Part shown: in pieces, positions 31,231 through 38,281 of the stretch | How the letters are laid out: every line of letters begins with the position of its first letter | Position numbering within the stretch: position 1 is the first letter of the stretch | DNA from: a virus | Taxonomy: Duplodnaviria > Caudoviricetes | Length of the DNA stretch: 60,212 nt | IMG/VR virus record: IMGVR_UViG_3300007513_000041 | Location: 1 to 60,212 of that record | Strand: one strand, 5' to 3' | The notes under the pieces: model-generated | The model's database searches: none | The model's input: the letters and a program-made list of their open reading frames with translations, nothing else | What the model was told of the DNA's origin: nothing | Program-made: the position numbers and the translations under genes

Positions 31231-33141
31231 TTAATGCATAACCTCCTGAACAATCTTTCTGAACTCCTTAATAACAAACTTGCTTGCACCATTCATACCT
31301 GTAAATGATACATATCTCTTACCAAATATATCTTTCAACACCTCTCCATATTTCCAATGGTTTGATATGTCTATACATATTATACGAGGAGATATCCTTA
31401 GTGCTTTCTTCAACGCTTTCTTATTCATCTTAATGAGAACGCCTGTTGGTGTGTCTATGTTGTTCTTATAGTATTGTGGTACGCCATCTGTGATCATGAT
31501 TAATAGTTTCTTCCTGCCTTTCCTACCACGTAATTGTTTTGCACTATGAATTAATGCTTCGTGTGTAGGTGTGAACATATAACTATCATGAGTGTTTATC
31601 TTAGAACACTCTTTCAGATTATTGAATGTTGTTATACCTACGTTGCCCTCATAATCAGAAGACCAAACATTTCCTAGTAAGTCAATGTTCTGTACTTTTT
31701 CTGACGCTTTATATAATGTTGCAACTAAGTTGCGAGCGTCAGTCATACGACCACTATTACCCATAGATCCTGATCCGTCTATTGATATGAGAACAGTAGC
31801 ACCTGAGCTTAACTTCTCATTGATCATGCATGGATCATTAGACTGTCTTACCTTTCTGTTAATGAACGCTTCAATATTAACCTCATTCCCATAGTCGTCT
31901 ACGTTTGAAGTGAATTGTTCTGCAAGTTTAGTGAATGTCTTTTGTAGTATACGCGCTGTCTTAGTATCAACATTAACCTTACTCTCATTTCTGCCCACAT
32001 TTTTGATATGTGATGGTGTCATTGATCCCATTTTATTCATGGCTTCTATACTTGCTTTCATATGTTCAACCTCTTCTTTACCGTCTGCCTTATTGAAACC
32101 TACCTCAGTCTTATGTTCCTCTTCTGATTGTGATTCCATTTCTTTAGTTGATTCTAGTATCTCTTCTTGCTCTTCATCAAACACTTCACGTTGTTCCTGA
32201 GTCATATGATTTCTATGTTCGTTTACCATACCACCATGATCATGTGAGTATTTAGTGTTGTTGCTATTCCTCATGCTATTTGTTATCTTAGATTTCTTAT
32301 TGAAAACTTCTTGTTGCTGTTTCTTTAAAGAATCCTTTGCACTCTCAGCATTAGTCGCTTCTGATTCACTAGTTGTAGTTCGTAGTGTTTCTTGCGCAGT
32401 GTTAATACCTTTCTGTAGCTCACGTAGTTTTTCATTCTCATTTTTATAGTCGCGAAGCTTATCTTTTATGTATTCATCAATGTGTTTCTTAGCTCTAACC
32501 AAACATGTTAGCGCACCTCTTGTGCCTGTTTCCTTAACGTCTTCCATGATTTCATTAGCCCAATCTTCACTAAGACTAGGTTGAAAGAATCTAGAAGCCA
32601 ACATTTTATCTGTTGGTGTTAAGGTATACTTAGGATCAGTTGCTCTCATACGCTCGGTGTCTGATAGTAATCGTTTACCTAGATTGGTACGAGTTTCCTC
32701 AAACATCTTTTCTGTTCCTAACCACACATGTTTAGTTAATGATTCAATCCTTTGATCTTCAATGATATTGAATGCTAACATGTACTCGGACATTATTGAT
32801 TTCTTAATACTTGCAAGCCTGTCTGCACTTGCTTCATTAGCAAGTTCTTTATTGCCAGCGACTAAATCATTAGCCCAAGCAGTAGTTAAACCTTTGACAT
32901 TGGGTGCGAAACTATCCCACATTAAGTGAGATAGCTCGTGATATAATGCTGCCTTTCTATTGATTCCTTTCTCATTAGGTGTGCATATATTTATAATGTA
33001 TGTGTTGGCTTTATCAGCAGGTGTCACGTAATTGTTTGTGCCTCTTTGATACGTTAGATCTATTGATAGACCTTTGATATCTTCTATAATGTTTGCACGT
33101 TTCTTAAAGTATTCTTGATGTGTTAGATATTCTGTTTTCAT
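31231..33141 (-). CDS. vWA-domain protein with N-terminal HExxH (CobT-like MoxR partner)
   Basis: YHELSH, FNIIEDQRIE, MIDAS DGSGS, TPT, ITDG. Confidence 0.88.
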   Translation of the reverse strand: MKTEYLTHQEYFKKRANIIEDIKGLSIDLTYQRGTNNYVTPADKANTYIINICTPNEKGINRKAALYHELSHLMWDSFAPNVKGLTTAWANDLVAGNKELANEASADRLASIKKSIMSEYMLAFNIIEDQRIESLTKHVWLGTEKMFEETRTNLGKRLLSDTERMRATDPKYTLTPTDKMLASRFFQPSLSEDWANEIMEDVKETGTRGALTCLVRAKKHIDEYIKDKLRDYKNENEKLRELQKGINTAQETLRTTTSESEATNAESAKDSLKKQQQEVFNKKSKITNSMRNSNNTKYSHDHGGMVNEHRNHMTQEQREVFDEEQEEILESTKEMESQSEEEHKTEVGFNKADGKEEVEHMKASIEAMNKMGSMTPSHIKNVGRNESKVNVDTKTARILQKTFTKLAEQFTSNVDDYGNEVNIEAFINRKVRQSNDPCMINEKLSSGATVLISIDGSGSMGNSGRMTDARNLVATLYKASEKVQNIDLLGNVWSSDYEGNVGITTFNNLKECSKINTHDSYMFTPTHEALIHSAKQLRGRKGRKKLLIMITDGVPQYYKNNIDTPTGVLIKMNKKALKKALRISPRIICIDISNHWKYGEVLKDIFGKRYVSFTGMNGASKFVIKEFRKIVQEVMH

Positions 33142-33252
33142 TTTAATCCCTGTCCTGCATGTAGTCTTCGAAGTCTACTTCAATACATACATAGTATGTA
33201 TCGACTACACCACAATGCTTACACTCTATCTCTTGTTCTGATTCTACTTCCA

Positions 33253-33546
33253 TTATATATCTACTCCATTCTTTTCTAAGAAGTCTTTTACTTTATCGAA
33301 GTCAATTTCCATTATCTCATTGTATGTGCTATACATTCTTTCTTTAGGATATATGTAGTAGTCACTGTAAAGATATCTTAATGTATCAAGTATCTCATCT
33401 TTCGTTGCATGATTCACAAACCTCGTTCTATCTGTAAGAGAATCCAATGCTCTCTCACAACTAAGTAGTTCATACTTTAGATGTTCTACATGTGGCTTAA
33501 GTAAGTCAACAGCATAATCCCTATCCTTAATGATCATCTTAGTCAT
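33253..33546 (-). CDS. Hypothetical protein
   Basis: Coupled ORF. Confidence 0.5.
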   Translation of the reverse strand: MTKMIIKDRDYAVDLLKPHVEHLKYELLSCERALDSLTDRTRFVNHATKDEILDTLRYLYSDYYIYPKERMYSTYNEIMEIDFDKVKDFLEKNGVDI

Positions 33547-33836
33547 GCCCGTGCCTCCTCATCATCATAGATAAGTAATGCACGTTCGAACTCGCCCTCA
33601 TACTTATCGTTGATAATGTATTGAAACTCATACTTCACATCAACTATGTGTCGTGTCAATATGTTTGTACCGTTGATAATAAATTTCTTTCTTAATCCGT
33701 TGGGATCAAACAATGGTACAAGACTAATGAACTCATTGATCTGTTCGTCAATAGGTATAGTGTTCTTGATTGTAGGTGGTTTACTCTCTTCCCTAAGTTT
33801 AGGGAAGAAGAGTTTAACCTTACGAACGCTGGTCAT
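33543..33836 (-). CDS. Hypothetical protein
   Basis: Coupled ORF. Confidence 0.5.
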   Translation of the reverse strand: MTSVRKVKLFFPKLREESKPPTIKNTIPIDEQINEFISLVPLFDPNGLRKKFIINGTNILTRHIVDVKYEFQYIINDKYEGEFERALLIYDDEEARA

Positions 33837-35008
33837 AACGTGATACCAAATGTATCTGCTATGGAATTCTTTATGAACTCACGTTCAGTTGCGTCTCCAT
33901 ACTTAACAAGTAAGCATGTTTTAATACACTTCCTCTTGAGCTGATCTCCATCTAGTCCGTCTTTCAACCATACTCTATACATGTCTGTGAACTGTACTAT
34001 ATCTCTAGGAGATAATACATACTCGACATCTCCTTTCACTCTAGAACTGTGTGTGTCCTGAACTACCTGAAGTAATGGAGCTGATACGTCATCAGGAATA
34101 TCCTCCCAATTAATTATCTTGTCCAAGTCTTTACTTGATGGGTAATCCCATACTGCACCAACATATCTAGACCTCAAGTCTTCTGTCAACTGATTCACAC
34201 CTGCATAATAACTAGGATTCATTGATGATATAACAATCAACTTACAATCATCATCTAATTTGAATTGTTTGTTGTTTGCTACTACCATATGTCTGTCGTC
34301 TAATACAGGGTTAAGTATCTTCTGCATTTCAGGCTCAAGTGCGTTAACTTCATCTAAGTATAGGCATGCTTTCTTATACTTGTTGGCACATAGTATTGCT
34401 CTTGGCAATACACCTAGATCAAAGTACGATCCGTTCTCATCTACTTGTGATCTACCTAAGAGATCTCCCTCTCTTGTACCACTAGAACAAGCATGAAATA
34501 CTAAGTGAGTCTGCGTATCATAAGACACATCATAAACACACAACGTCTTACCTAATCCTTTATCTCCCTCAATGAGATAAGGATATGGTATGTCCATTGT
34601 GAATTGTTTAAGTAGGTCTTGTCTTTCGTCATCTATCTCAATATAATTACCCCATTTATAAGGCTTGTATTGATCGAAGTCTACGACACCGAACTTTGTT
34701 GTATGATTACCTGTCTGATTAGGCTTAGATTGTTTGACTTCCTCTACTACCTGTTGAGTTTCCTGTACCTGTTGCTTAGGGTTAAGGATCTCTTCAATAG
34801 ACATAGCTGATTCTACTGTTGCTACTTCAGGTGTAGGCTCTCCCATGTGTAAGCCCTTAATATATTCTAAGAACTCAGGCGATCTTACTAACTCAGTATA
34901 ATGTTGCGCTCTGTCTTCAGCTACACTCTTACGTGTGAAATTATCGCGCGCTATCTCCCTTGCTTTCAATGTCAATTCGTATCTTAACTCTTCATCTGTT
35001 TGTGTCAT
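33833..35008 (-). CDS. MoxR/CobS-like AAA+ ATPase
   Basis: GDKGLGKT, LYLDEVN, SSMNP, DLRSRY, SPR. Confidence 0.9.
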   Translation of the reverse strand: MTQTDEELRYELTLKAREIARDNFTRKSVAEDRAQHYTELVRSPEFLEYIKGLHMGEPTPEVATVESAMSIEEILNPKQQVQETQQVVEEVKQSKPNQTGNHTTKFGVVDFDQYKPYKWGNYIEIDDERQDLLKQFTMDIPYPYLIEGDKGLGKTLCVYDVSYDTQTHLVFHACSSGTREGDLLGRSQVDENGSYFDLGVLPRAILCANKYKKACLYLDEVNALEPEMQKILNPVLDDRHMVVANNKQFKLDDDCKLIVISSMNPSYYAGVNQLTEDLRSRYVGAVWDYPSSKDLDKIINWEDIPDDVSAPLLQVVQDTHSSRVKGDVEYVLSPRDIVQFTDMYRVWLKDGLDGDQLKRKCIKTCLLVKYGDATEREFIKNSIADTFGITL

Positions 35009-36678: not shown

Positions 36679-36799
36679 AATCTAAAGGTTGCCAGCTTGC
36701 ATAAAAAGGTATTGTTTTGTGCCTGACTTGTGCCTAGCATTTTTCAAACAGTCGTCTAACACTGTATACATACATTAATCACAACAACAGTAGAAGCAG

Positions 36800-37450
36800 T
36801 AGTATGCGTAAGCATTAGGCGTAAGCCCTACATATCGTTATACTTATTGTTATATAATATATGTATTTGATTAATAGATTACACTACCATACAGTATAAT
36901 AATACGCGTACGCGTATGTATAATAATAAATATAAATACATATCTTTATGCGTAATTAGGCACGAAGTTTCAACCTGCATACGTTACGCGCGTAATATAT
37001 AATATAATATAATATATAATATAATATAATAATAACATAGTATAATACTAATATAATAATAGTGTACATATACGCGTAAGGCACAAATATTTCCTGTACC
37101 CATAGCCCTCACATGCGCATCTGCCCTTACACGTACGCGTACTGTACGCGTAATAGGATACATTATTTTTAACTTCAGACAACTCGCCTGCTGCGTTGTC
37201 TAGGCGTAATGAGCAGCAACTCCCTTCGCTAATTACACGGGCATCTCGTTTCTTTACACATATTTCAGGCTCTCCATACGCGCGCGTACCCTAAGAGATA
37301 TAATTTCCATGCCTATTTACTCATGAATTGTTATACCCTAATACGCGTATGTGTATGCGTAATAATATATATAATAATAATATAATATAATAATATAATA
37401 TAATAATATAATATATAATATAAATAAATAATAATAATAATACATAGTGT
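36800..37450. repeat. AT-only tracts interleaved with TACGCGTA-type palindromes (candidate origin or terminus element)
   Basis: G/C-free run ~37360-37442; near G/C-free run ~36993-37060; ATACGCGTACGCGTAT palindrome 36902-36917; further (T)ACGCG motifs. Confidence 0.6.
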
Positions 37451-37681
37451 ACAAATTACCTTAGTAGTGTACGGATTTAACCTAAGCCTAGGGTTAATGA
37501 CTGATTTTGACACTAACCCTAGGTTAAGTAAGTATGCTATGTTCGTATCTCATAGGCTCACACATTACTTACGCTCAGTCAAAACCGAAGACCAATGGCT
37601 TGTTTCTCCTTTTCCTTGACCCGAACGAATTTTTAACGGTGGATAATGAATCCACTTACGGAAATACGTTAACTATAAAGA

Positions 37682-37783
37682 GTGGAACGAATGGGATTTG
37701 AACCCATAACAGCCAGCAATTAACACTGTTTAGACGCAGTTAATTTACGCCTCACTATGATACCAAGTTTCACCATCTTCCAC
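37682..37783 (-). ncRNA. tRNA-like element with non-canonical anticodon region
   Basis: Stem GTGGAAGA/TC(G)TTCCAC; D-arm GTGA-AACTTGGTA-TCAT; T-arm ATGGG-TTCAAAT-CCCAT; TATA box upstream. Confidence 0.7.
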
Positions 37784-37811
37784 ACGCTTAGTTATTAGCT
37801 AAGTATAATAT

Positions 37812-37949
37812 GTTATTATATAATATATTGCGCATATGCTCATGGTTTCTCTGTCCCAAAACGGGATGAACTGGGATGAATGTTCTCCAATACAACCAAA
37901 GGGATTTACCCCTAAGCGCTCTATTAAGATGACGATATTATATAATAAC
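37812..37949. promoter_or_regulatory. Divergent TATA promoters forming a 15-bp inverted repeat
   Basis: GTTATTATATAATAT (37812-37826) and ATATTATATAATAAC (37935-37949). Confidence 0.55.
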
Positions 37950-38281
37950 TGTAATACTAGGAATTACAACCTAGGGACAATTACTGCTCAAAGGCAAACC
38001 TAGGGACAACTTTTACGACCTAGCGTCTAATAACGTGATGTTTTTTATACACCCTATATCGTATTTTGATAGATATTTAGAACAAACTTGTTGCCTAAAA
38101 AATCCCAAACTTACTTTATCCATTATGTAGACTATGAAATTATCATATATCATTGAGCGTGTAAACTCAGTGATTTGGCTCGCTGAATATATGATAACTG
38201 TAAGTAGATTATATGATAAGAAAGAAAGGGTCATTACGTGACCAATCGGATATTTTACAAGTAAACTAGGCGTTATTCTGT

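What the first reader, a model, noticed from the sequence alone, without database searches (positions are those of the whole stretch)
37682..37783. tRNA mimic with an intact elbow but a rebuilt, extended anticodon arm
Seen on the minus strand: canonical U8, A14, G18G19 and A21, a D-stem, a perfect T-arm (GG-TTCAAAT-CC) and an A15:U48-type Levitt pair. The acceptor-like stem is 8 bp with a bulged G and has no CCA outside the stem. The segment between D- and T-arms is ~47 nt rather than ~21. It folds best as a long hairpin (AATTAACTG/CAG-TG-TTAATT) capped by CGTCTAAA, which contains U-CUA-AA as in amber/Pyl anticodon loops. The standard register gives a poor stem with a GTA (Tyr) anticodon in an atypical GC-GTA-AA loop. 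Inference: a viral tRNA-like RNA acting as a decoy for anticodon nucleases, an RNase P/Z processing handle, or an intron-bearing tRNA.
Basis: partly seen in the sequence, partly recalled or inferred. Interest (0 to 1): 0.85.

Follow-up and report, generated by a model that had tools for sequence, protein, structure and literature searches.

The report
Lone aberrant tRNA-like gene, archaeal virus
A marine archaeal virus carries one tRNA-shaped gene with an intact elbow, a flawed acceptor stem and no usable anticodon arm, so it is probably a derived or broken viral tRNA, not a working decoder.

Summary
The element is real. Minus strand 37683-37781 matches the Rfam tRNA model at 23.2 bits, below the 29-bit cut-off (E 5.3e-4 for tRNA alone over the 60-kb genome). 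It has canonical D and T arms, an acceptor stem with one bulged G, and about 26 extra bases in the anticodon region. Contigs from two other studies are identical, so the bulge is not an assembly error.

The window is a complete archaeal tailed virus (MCM, RadA, halovirus-like capsid). Its host is probably Nitrosopumilaceae. The T arm plus 3' acceptor strand is 24/25 identical to a Ca. Nitrosopelagicus tRNA-Val.

The long hairpin is not the best fold (-14.8 against -25.8 kcal/mol). No archaeal bulge-helix-bulge intron gives a tRNA: 0 of 258 candidates, against 5 of 5 host controls.

The best register is tRNA-Asn(GUU) interrupted by a 25-nt hairpin. All three stop codons are in use, so an amber suppressor is unlikely.

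Relatives lack the element: 0 of 81 loci and 0 of 4 records.

Verdict: a lineage-specific, tRNA-derived, probably non-decoding RNA gene. Whether it is a useful mimic or a relic is undecided. Interest is moderate to low.

The parts
37683..37781 (-). tRNA-like element (GGAAGA...GUUCCA). ARAGORN relaxed calls 37682-37782.
   Evidence: cmscan RF00005 at 23.2 bits, model positions 1-71. ARAGORN -ps calls tRNA-Asn(gtt) with an intron, i(33,25).
37776..37781 (-). Acceptor 5' strand GGAAGA. It has six bases where seven are needed. Two further bases, 37782-37783 (GU), can pair with 37682-37683.
   Evidence: Sequence. The cmscan alignment shows a deletion in this strand. X5 and X6 contigs are identical here.
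37757..37773 (-). D arm: stem GUGA/UCAU and loop AACUUGGUA (A14, A15, G18, G19, A21). It is preceded by U8 and G9 at 37775-37774.
37708..37755 (-). Enlarged central region of 48 nt, in place of the anticodon arm plus variable loop (about 21-22 nt).
   Evidence: The cmscan alignment shows a 42-nt insert where the model has 15 positions.
37732..37752 (-). Hairpin A: 7-bp stem AGGCGUA/UGCGUCU with the 7-nt loop AAUUAAC (A at position 33, not U). It is present in all 12 lowest-energy folds of the central region; in the two 6-bp variants one end pair is open.
37708..37730 (-). Hairpin B: stem AACAGU/GCUGUU with an 11-nt loop. It sits where a long variable arm would sit.
37718..37745 (-). It cannot form together with hairpins A and B.
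   Evidence: single copy of the palindromic ends. (-14.8 kcal/mol for the whole fold that contains it).
37726..37750 (-). 25-nt insert (GCGUAAAUUAACUGCGUCUAAACAG) that ARAGORN treats as an intron between positions 32 and 33. Removing it leaves the loop G-U-GUU-AA, which reads as Asn.
   Evidence: No BHB motif lies at these junctions.
37691..37707 (-). T arm AUGGG-UUCAAAU-CCCAU.
   Evidence: It is identical (17/17) to the T arm of the Ca. Nitrosopelagicus tRNA-Val(CAC).
37683..37690 (-). Acceptor 3' strand UCGUUCC (bulged G at 37688) plus discriminator A (37683).
   Evidence: It differs by one base from UCGAUCC-A of the host tRNA-Val.
37673..37682 (-). T-rich trailer CTCTTTATAG. It resembles the C/T-rich trailers of host tRNA genes. 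The same 10-mer in relative L003 follows the promoter-like motif directly.
37804..37815 (-). TATA-like motif TAACATATTATA. Its A/T-only octamer lies at -30..-23 from the tRNA-like 5' end. It is conserved in L003.
   Evidence: the only exact copy in the window. (alignment to L003). (host tRNA genes have their A/T block at -31..-25).
37633..37672 (-). Conserved hairpin just downstream: TTAACG..GTGGAT-TCATT-ATCCAC..CGTTAA. L003 has GTGAGT/ACTCAC, which is two compensatory pair changes.
   Evidence: Alignment A1 and alignment A5.

Best explanation
This is a single, lineage-specific, tRNA-derived gene in a marine archaeal tailed virus whose host is probably a Nitrosopumilaceae ammonia oxidiser.

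It looks like a host-style tRNA transcription unit. A TATA-like box lies about 30 to 23 nt upstream and a T-rich trailer follows. It keeps the half of a tRNA that end-processing enzymes read: the acceptor/T-arm helix and the D-loop/T-loop elbow with all the usual tertiary bases.

The parts needed for decoding are spoiled. The acceptor stem has a one-base bulge. The anticodon region carries about 26 extra bases that do not form a recognisable archaeal intron. The most stable central hairpin has A, not U, at position 33.

The mechanism I favour is inferred, not shown. The RNA would be made from its own promoter, trimmed by RNase P and tRNase Z and given CCA like a tRNA, but it would not act as an ordinary decoder.

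By descent it is best read as a viral tRNA (closest register tRNA-Asn(GUU)) interrupted by a 25-nt hairpin. I cannot decide whether the processed RNA now serves the virus, as a mimic or a processing handle, or is a relic. I hold the two as about equally likely.
For: - tRNA likeness: 23.2 bits, E 5.3e-4 per genome. ARAGORN relaxed makes 1 call here and 0 in 773,675 nt of related loci.
- The D stem (4/4 pairs), T stem (5/5 pairs) and U8, A14, A15:U48, G18, G19, A21 and UUCAAAU are all canonical.
- The lesions are real. X5 and X6 contigs from other studies show 0 differences.
- Scores of working tRNAs under the same model are much higher. All 26 tRNAs of host MAG G001 that pass the cut-off score 36-66 bits, intron-bearing ones included. 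The two tRNAs of the related virus-like contig G101:C3 score 60-62 bits.
- No BHB intron: 0 of 42 and 0 of 258 candidates, against 5 of 5 host controls.
- Host-style gene signals: the T arm plus 3' acceptor strand plus discriminator is 24/25 identical to Ca. Nitrosopelagicus tRNA-Val. The trailer resembles family tRNA genes. The TATA-like octamer is at the host spacing.
- Asn register: the spliced product passes ARAGORN default. UGUUAAU equals positions U33-U39 of the host tRNA-Asn. A related virus-like contig carries tRNA-Asn(GUU).
- Discrete module: L003 has the same promoter-like motif and the same downstream hairpin but not these 100 nt.
Against: - No RNA data exist, so transcription, end processing and CCA addition are all inferred.
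- The region upstream is A/T-rich throughout, so a TATA-like octamer at the right distance is weak evidence.
- A bulge in the acceptor stem might also hinder RNase P or tRNase Z.
- The Asn register has G32, no base 26, a 7-nt variable loop and discriminator A, where the host and G101:C3 tRNA-Asn have G.
- 33 different arbitrary excisions give ARAGORN-default tRNAs of at least 10 anticodons, so that register is not unique.
- My BHB finder only allows 3-nt bulges and a 4-bp central helix with at most one mismatch. A looser motif could have been missed.
- Only one viral species holds the element, so there is no covariation test.
- The 5' half matches no tRNA in the 61 Nitrosopumilaceae genomes searched with BLAST, so its source is unknown.
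Confidence: 0.55

Rival explanations
1. It is a working intron-bearing viral tRNA, most likely tRNA-Asn(GUU) with a 25-nt intron at 32/33. The host splicing endonuclease would remove the intron through a relaxed motif that my search did not model, and the RNA would then be used in translation.
For: - ARAGORN relaxed makes this call, and the excised product passes ARAGORN default.
- Host-family tRNAs carry introns at non-canonical places, for example 19 nt in the variable region of tRNA-Val.
- A related virus-like contig has tRNA-Asn(GUU) and tRNA-His.
- HFTV1, an archaeal tailed virus, expresses a tRNA with a putative 5-nt intron and shows two RNA species on Northern blots (bioRxiv 10.64898/2026.09.13.751334, passages read).
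- Asn codons are frequent: AAT 35.0 and AAC 20.7 per thousand.
Against: - 0 of 258 BHB-like excisions give a tRNA, while 5 of 5 host intron tRNAs pass the same test.
- The acceptor stem has a bulged G. The register has G32, discriminator A instead of G, no base 26 and a 7-nt variable loop.
- 23.2 bits is below every one of the 26 host tRNAs of G001 that pass the cut-off.
Confidence: 0.2
2. It is an inert relic: a broken tRNA gene that is no longer transcribed or has no effect, kept only because it arrived recently.
For: - It has two lesions, in exactly the parts needed for decoding.
- It is absent from every relative examined.
- The fold is not unusually stable, with z -1.63.
- With only two lesion events, their falling in the acceptor and anticodon parts is not improbable (my estimate is about 0.3).
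Against: - The genome is compact, with 88% of it in ORFs.
- The element sits behind a promoter-like motif that is conserved in L003.
- The 5' half matches no host-family tRNA by BLAST, yet it keeps every stem pair of the D arm and all the tertiary bases. That fits selection on the fold better than it fits drift.
Confidence: 0.12
3. It acts at the DNA level, as an attP-like site for integration into the 3' end of a host tRNA gene.
For: - A 20-nt block (ATGGGTTCAAATCCCATTCG) is identical to the Ca. Nitrosopelagicus tRNA-Val(CAC), and 24 of 25 bases match up to the discriminator.
- Thaumarchaeal integrated elements mostly target tRNA 3' ends, with short att sites of median length 17 bp (PMC6563490, passages read).
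Against: - No tyrosine integrase was found in six frames: PF00589 gave 0 candidates.
- The same T arm is shared by several host tRNAs (Pro, Ala, Val), so the identity is not specific.
- An att site does not need a D arm or a paired 5' acceptor strand.
- No integrated copy was seen. The host contig in X1/X5 runs on into non-viral sequence. The one MCP homologue found in 201 family genomes lies on a separate 68-kb contig.
Confidence: 0.07
4. One reading: a tRNA body with a long rebuilt anticodon arm whose tip loop (CGUCUAAA) presents CUA. It would act as an amber suppressor or as a decoy for anticodon nucleases.
For: - The 9-bp hairpin with a 2-nt bulge can be drawn, and its 7-nt palindromic ends are unique in the window.
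- The junction geometry (A26, 4-nt variable loop, U48) is canonical in this register.
Against: - This fold is -14.8 kcal/mol against -25.8 for the two-hairpin fold.
- The tip loop has 8 nt.
- TAG is used as a stop in 18 of 81 ORFs, and reading TAG as sense raises ORF cover only from 0.78 to 0.81.
- The tip loop matches no host tRNA anticodon loop that a nuclease would be expected to recognise.
Confidence: 0.03

Closest known systems
tRNA genes of archaeal tailed viruses (HFTV1 vtRNA-Thr(CGU) with a putative 5-nt intron; HGTV-1 with 36 tRNAs; tRNA-His and tRNA-Asn on the virus-like contig G101:C3 found here)
   Same: It is a virus-borne gene of tRNA shape in an archaeal Caudoviricetes genome. 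Its stems are richer in A/U than host tRNAs. It may carry an insert in the anticodon loop.
   Different: Those tRNAs are canonical; the two on G101:C3 score 60-62 bits. This one scores 23.2 bits, has a bulged acceptor stem and about 26 extra bases, and yields no clean anticodon arm.
Intron-bearing pre-tRNAs of Nitrosopumilaceae (bulge-helix-bulge introns, including non-canonical positions)
   Same: The length (about 100 nt) and the presence of an internal hairpin are alike. The T arm, the trailer and the promoter spacing are host-like.
   Different: No BHB, hBH or HBh' motif gives a tRNA: 0 of 258 candidates, against 5 of 5 host controls.
tRNA-like processing handles: mascRNA at the MALAT1 3' end and the tRNA-like parts of murid herpesvirus 68 TMER transcripts (recalled from my own knowledge, not from any call)
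   Same: These are non-decoding RNAs that keep the acceptor/T helix and the elbow, are cut by RNase P and/or tRNase Z, and have a degenerate anticodon arm. Here too a conserved hairpin follows 10 nt downstream.
   Different: Those are eukaryotic or animal-virus RNAs with shown processing; nothing has been shown here. The downstream hairpin also exists in L003 without any tRNA-like element.
attP sites of thaumarchaeal integrated elements that copy the 3' end of a tRNA gene (PMC6563490)
   Same: A 20-nt block is identical to a host tRNA 3' part.
   Different: No integrase was found. A full tRNA-like body is present, not just the 3' part.
Class II, tRNA-Sec-like and allo-tRNA shapes (8/5 acceptor/T arrangement, long variable arm; recalled from my own knowledge)
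   Same: The minimum-energy fold has an 8-bp acceptor helix, a 5-bp T stem, a 6-bp D stem and a hairpin in the variable-arm position.
   Different: The loop AAUUAAC has A33. Four unpaired bases separate the D and anticodon stems. The D loop has 8 nt and contains GG. The overlapping same-clan match that one search left out scored lower than the tRNA match.

Membership tests
Canonical decoding tRNA (Rfam RF00005) | Score at or above the family's gathering cut-off (29 bits) | tested here: not met
   The score is 23.2 bits. Nothing is listed at the gathering threshold.
Canonical decoding tRNA (Rfam RF00005) | D arm and T arm with the conserved tertiary bases (U8, A14, G18G19, A21, G53, T54, Psi55, C56, A58, C61) | tested here: met
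   The cmscan alignment and the sequence show them all.
Canonical decoding tRNA (Rfam RF00005) | Fully paired 7-bp acceptor stem | tested here: not met
   GGAA-GA / UCGUUCC: one base is missing from the 5' strand, which leaves G 37688 bulged. X5 and X6 contigs are identical.
Canonical decoding tRNA (Rfam RF00005) | 5-bp anticodon stem and 7-nt loop with U33, one base after the D stem | tested here: not met
   In the standard register the stem has a G.G mismatch and the loop has C33. Hairpin A has A33 and lies 4 nt from the D stem.
Archaeal intron-bearing pre-tRNA | Bulge-helix-bulge motif (or relaxed hBH / HBh') at the exon-intron junctions | tested here: not met
   0 of 42 strict and 0 of 258 one-mismatch candidates give an ARAGORN-default tRNA. 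Host controls pass 4 of 5 strict and 5 of 5 relaxed. Motifs with other bulge sizes were not modelled.
Archaeal intron-bearing pre-tRNA | The spliced product is a canonical cloverleaf of one clear identity | tested here: inconclusive
   The Asn(GUU) product passes ARAGORN default, but so do 33 excisions with at least 10 anticodons.
Suppressor tRNA (CUA or UUA) of a recoded virus | The matching stop codon is read as sense in viral genes | tested here: not met
   Stops are TAA 37, TGA 26 and TAG 18 in 81 ORFs. The long structural and replication genes are intact under table 11.
attP of a tRNA-targeting integrative element | A recombinase gene in the element | tested here: not met
   PF00589 searched in six frames gave 0 candidates. 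Other recombinase families were not searched.
attP of a tRNA-targeting integrative element | An identity block with the 3' part of a host tRNA gene | tested here: met
   20 nt are identical and 24/25 match Ca. Nitrosopelagicus tRNA-Val(CAC). However, the block is shared with several other tRNAs.
Non-decoding tRNA-like processing handle (mascRNA / TMER type) | Cut by RNase P and/or tRNase Z, given CCA, and not aminoacylated | not testable with these tools
   No listed run that holds the sequence is on record as RNA.

The most novel reading that the evidence does not exclude
An archaeal virus makes a purpose-built, non-decoding tRNA mimic. It keeps only what host RNase P, tRNase Z and the CCA-adding enzyme recognise, and it copies the host's own T arm and acceptor end. 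It would serve as a processing or stability handle for the small-RNA slot it sits in, or as a sponge for a host tRNA-binding factor. The slot would be an exchangeable cassette, because the nearest relative carries an unrelated 128-nt sequence behind the same promoter-like motif. I know of no described tRNA mimic of this kind in an archaeal virus.
Probability: 0.25. Interest if true: 0.7.

Novelty: new member of a known kind. Interest (0 to 1): 0.35.

Why it matters
Virus-encoded tRNAs are known in haloarchaeal tailed viruses. My five paper searches turned up nothing on tRNA or tRNA-like genes in marine thaumarchaeal viruses.

If the RNA is expressed and end-processed without decoding, it would be an archaeal counterpart of the tRNA-like handles of animal viruses and long non-coding RNAs.

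If it is spliced, it would show that the thaumarchaeal endonuclease accepts a junction without a recognisable BHB motif.

If it is a relic, it is ordinary. Even so, it links this abundant marine virus group (413 portal relatives in IMG/VR) to Nitrosopumilaceae hosts.

Tried and rejected
- **More copies of the element, none found.**
  - nhmmer of the element against 81 related loci: 0 hits.
  - Exact patterns in viral contigs: the T-arm/acceptor 22-mer gave 0 and the hairpin 18-mer gave 0. The D-arm 18-mer gave 2 hits, both chance matches inside coding sequence.
  - Metagenome contigs: 0 for the 22-mer and 0 for the downstream-hairpin pattern.
  - The downstream-hairpin pattern and the 106-aa neighbour ORF found only the L003 contig.
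  - The AAA-ATPase query gave one relative, L001, whose contig ends at about window 37525, just short of the element.
- **RNA evidence.** No listed run that holds the sequence is on record as RNA, so expression could not be examined.
- **Rfam families other than tRNA.** Only weak chance-level rows appeared. The L003 counterpart region has no family hit better than E 7, and its fold z-score is -0.9.
- **Descent from tRNA-Val(CAC).** The shared 7-mer ACTGCGT looked like a homologous anticodon stem. But 3 of the 26 host tRNAs share some 7-mer with the central part (Val, Asn, Leu), so I dropped the claim. A crude segment-wise alignment to the host tRNAs gave no clear nearest isotype.
- **Trailer as an att-specific match.** Rejected, because Ala, Pro and Val genes of the family have similar T-rich trailers.
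- **Host assignment from proteins.** Viral RadA is 40-44% identical and MCM 31-37% identical to family homologues, which is not informative.
- **Motif enrichment.** GTTAAC is not enriched in the window.
- **The 73-aa ORF beside the element.** It has no Pfam hit and no likeness to the 73-aa ORF beside the G101:C3 tRNAs.

Full report
**What the window is.**
- The 60,212-base window is one whole IMG/VR virus record, linear and estimated 96% complete.
- It encodes a T4-type large terminase, an MCM helicase, a RadA/Rad51 recombinase and an AAA_5 (CobS-like) ATPase.
- Its portal and major capsid protein have their only matches among deposited phage records in Haloarcula tailed viruses (HCTV-1/5, HVTV-1), at 23-26% identity. 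Each search found 8 records out of 50,697.
- It is therefore an archaeal tailed virus.
- G+C is 35%. ORFs of at least 60 aa cover 88% of the genome under the standard code, and all three stop codons are used: TAA 37, TGA 26, TAG 18 of 81.
- The portal has 413 relatives in IMG/VR.

**The observation.** I read the minus strand with index 1 at window 37783.
- The base-level description holds.
- The acceptor pairing is GUGGAAGA / UC(G)UUCCAC, with G 37688 bulged. In the 7-bp tRNA register the 5' strand is one base short.
- U8 and G9 are present. The D stem is GUGA/UCAU with loop AACUUGGUA, which gives A14, A15, G18, G19 and A21.
- The T arm is AUGGG-UUCAAAU-CCCAU. U48 lies before the T stem. The discriminator is A, then CUCUUUAUAG with no CCA.
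- Between the arms lie 48 nt (plus A26), not about 21.

**Is it more than chance?**
- Rfam's tRNA model gives 23.2 bits, below the 29-bit cut-off.
  - E is 0.019 for 501 nt against all families.
  - E is 5.3e-4 for the tRNA family alone over the genome.
  - Nothing is listed at E<=1 when 4227 families are run on the whole window.
- ARAGORN finds nothing at default settings.
- With relaxed thresholds ARAGORN makes one call in the window and none in 773,675 nt of 81 related loci.
- Contigs of two other studies lie on the element without a single difference. X5 covers all of it and X6 covers 37728-37783, so the acceptor lesion is not an assembly error.

**The fold.**
- The whole structure containing it scores -14.8 kcal/mol.
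- With the acceptor, D and T arms enforced the optimum is -25.8 kcal/mol. The free minimum-energy fold is -26.2.
- Both of those folds have two hairpins in the centre:
  - Hairpin A is AGGCGUA/UGCGUCU with the 7-nt loop AAUUAAC.
  - Hairpin B is AACAGU/GCUGUU with an 11-nt loop.
- Hairpin A has A at position 33 and starts four bases after the D stem, so it is not a canonical anticodon arm either.
- None of the folds is unusually stable. The z-score is -1.63 for the element and -1.0 for the centre.

**Intron test.**
- ARAGORN relaxed reads tRNA-Asn(GUU) with a 25-nt intron between positions 32 and 33.
- I listed every bulge-helix-bulge-like arrangement: a 4-bp central helix, 3-nt bulges, and at least 2 bp of an outer or inner helix. 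I then asked whether the spliced product is a tRNA by ARAGORN default.
- The element gave 0 of 42 candidates, and 0 of 258 when one mismatch is allowed in the central helix.
- The five intron-bearing tRNAs of the host family used as controls all gave the expected tRNA. Tyr, Met, Leu and Val passed the strict test; Ser needed one mismatch.
- The reverse test is not discriminating. Cutting out arbitrary pieces gives 33 ARAGORN-default tRNAs of at least ten anticodons.
The Asn register is only the best of several.
- Points for the Asn register:
  - UGUUAAU equals U33-U39 of the host tRNA-Asn.
  - A related virus-like contig carries tRNA-Asn(GUU).
- Points against it: G32, no base 26, a 7-nt variable loop, and discriminator A where the host and G101:C3 tRNA-Asn have G.

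**Host link.**
- In runs X1 and X5 a second contig of about 1.34 kb matched only window 37676-37707, with 2 differences.
- Its neighbouring letters occur in a Ca. Nitrosopelagicus MAG as tRNA-Val(CAC).
- The viral T arm is 17/17 identical to that tRNA. T arm plus 3' acceptor strand plus discriminator is 24/25 identical.
- Across 61 Nitrosopumilaceae genomes, all listed BLAST matches but four weak ones (E 0.002-0.05, inside the central region) fall in the T-arm, acceptor and trailer part. The 5' acceptor strand and D arm match nothing.
- Ala, Pro and Val genes share the T arm and a similar C/T-rich trailer. The trailer match is therefore generic to these tRNA genes and not specific to an att site.
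- Host tRNA genes have an A/T-only block at -31..-25. The element has ATATTATA at -30..-23, but the whole upstream stretch is A/T-rich.
- One of 201 family genomes (G101) holds a capsid homologue (46% identity) and a portal homologue (41% identity). They lie on a separate 68,160-nt contig that also carries tRNA-His(GUG) and tRNA-Asn(GUU) at 60-62 bits.
- Together this makes a Nitrosopumilaceae host likely. I could not compare with Poseidoniales or Thermoplasmata.
- RadA (40-44% identity) and MCM (31-37% identity) do not help with the host.

**Relatives.**
- None of the 81 portal-linked loci has a tRNA by ARAGORN or a match to the element by nhmmer.
- None of the 4 related records searched whole, two of them at least 90% complete, has a tRNA match at E<=0.1.
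- The nearest relative that covers the place is L003 (portal 92% identical). It shares the promoter-like motif TAACATATTATA...TAAGCRTG and the downstream hairpin.
- In L003 the 10-mer CTCTTTATAG follows TAAGCATG directly. In the window the 100 nt 37782-37683 lie between the two.
- L003 in turn has 128 unrelated bases between that 10-mer and the hairpin.
- The promoter motif is internally repetitive, so its register is uncertain by about 20 nt. I estimate that a shared 10-mer has roughly a 0.1 chance of arising in such A/T-rich sequence.
- The safe statement is that the slot between a conserved promoter-like motif and a conserved hairpin holds different sequences in the two viruses. The tRNA-like element is one discrete occupant of that slot.
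- The hairpin itself (37672-37633) shows two compensatory pair changes between the viruses. A second hairpin (37555-37537) shows one.

**Reading.**
- The element is tRNA-derived and is built like a host tRNA gene.
- Working tRNAs score far higher with the same model. The 26 host tRNAs of G001 that pass the cut-off score 36-66 bits, including the intron-bearing ones. The two tRNAs of the related virus-like contig score 60-62 bits.
- What survives intact is the acceptor/T helix and the elbow. By established knowledge of these enzymes (not tested here), these are the parts that RNase P, tRNase Z and the CCA-adding enzyme recognise.
- What is spoiled is what aminoacylation and decoding need.
- I therefore favour an RNA that is made and end-processed like a tRNA but does not decode, with confidence 0.55.
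- I am undecided whether that RNA is a useful mimic or handle, or a relic of a viral tRNA (best register Asn-GUU) split by a 25-nt hairpin.
- Rivals, with my confidence in each:
  - A truly spliced tRNA: 0.2.
  - An inert relic: 0.12.
  - An attP-like site: 0.07. No PF00589 integrase was found, and thaumarchaeal att sites are short and lie in tRNA 3' ends (PMC6563490, passages read).
- A precedent for an expressed archaeal viral tRNA with a small putative intron is HFTV1 (bioRxiv 10.64898/2026.09.13.751334, passages read).
- tRNA genes in haloarchaeal tailed viruses, and the clustering of marine archaeal viruses with Druskaviridae, are described in PMC8651126 (passages read).

**Limits.**
- There are no RNA data. 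No listed run that holds the sequence is on record as RNA.
- Only one viral species has the element, so covariation cannot be tested.
- The BHB search covers standard and mildly relaxed motifs only.
- tRNAscan-SE and SPLITS were not available.
- Supplementary tables of the papers were not seen.

Noticed in passing
window 36679-38012: This is the largest stretch of the genome without a convincing ORF, about 1.33 kb. It holds A/T-only repeat runs (36990-37060, 37350-37440) flanked by repeated TACGCGTA-type palindromes. It could be a replication origin or a control region. Parts of it are conserved in L001 and L003 at 68-82% identity.
   Followed up: partly
window 37633-37672 and 37537-37555 (minus strand): Two hairpins downstream of the element are conserved in L003 with compensatory pair changes: GTGGAT/ATCCAC against GTGAGT/ACTCAC, and CTATG/CATAG against CTACG/CGTAG. 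This could be a conserved small RNA or a protein-binding inverted repeat.
   Followed up: partly
L003 5900-6022 (minus strand): In the nearest relative, an unrelated 128-nt sequence fills the slot behind the shared promoter-like motif. It has no Rfam match and its fold z-score is -0.9.
   Followed up: partly
window 37812-37826 and 37935-37949: A perfect 15-nt inverted repeat, GTTATTATATAATAT / ATATTATATAATAAC, forms two TATA-like motifs 108 nt apart. They bracket a terminator-like hairpin at 37900-37913.
   Followed up: no
G101:C3 (68,160 nt; L154, L155): A separate contig in a Nitrosopumilaceae genome assembly has capsid (46% identity), portal (41% identity) and RadA homologues of this virus. 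It also carries canonical tRNA-His(GUG) and tRNA-Asn(GUU) at L155 7234-7548. It is probably a related virus or episome.
   Followed up: partly
L120, L122, L123, L126, L131, L143, L146, L150 (Nitrosopumilaceae genomes): tRNA-Val(CAC) carries a non-canonical intron in the variable region in many family members (19 nt in L120) but not in the Ca. Nitrosopelagicus forms (L110-L112). The L120 intron has a strict BHB motif.
   Followed up: partly
window 31231-35008 (minus strand): An AAA_5 ATPase (PHROG label 'porphyrin biosynthesis', CobS-like) lies next to a 636-aa protein with no Pfam hit. This may be the cobS-cobT pair reported for Druskaviridae and other tailed viruses (PMC8651126). The second gene was not checked.
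   Followed up: no
G001:C35:6322-6379 (L109): The host MAG has a partial tRNA-like match of 28.2 bits (model positions 10-63) about 120 nt from a full tRNA gene. It may be a tRNA fragment.
   Followed up: no
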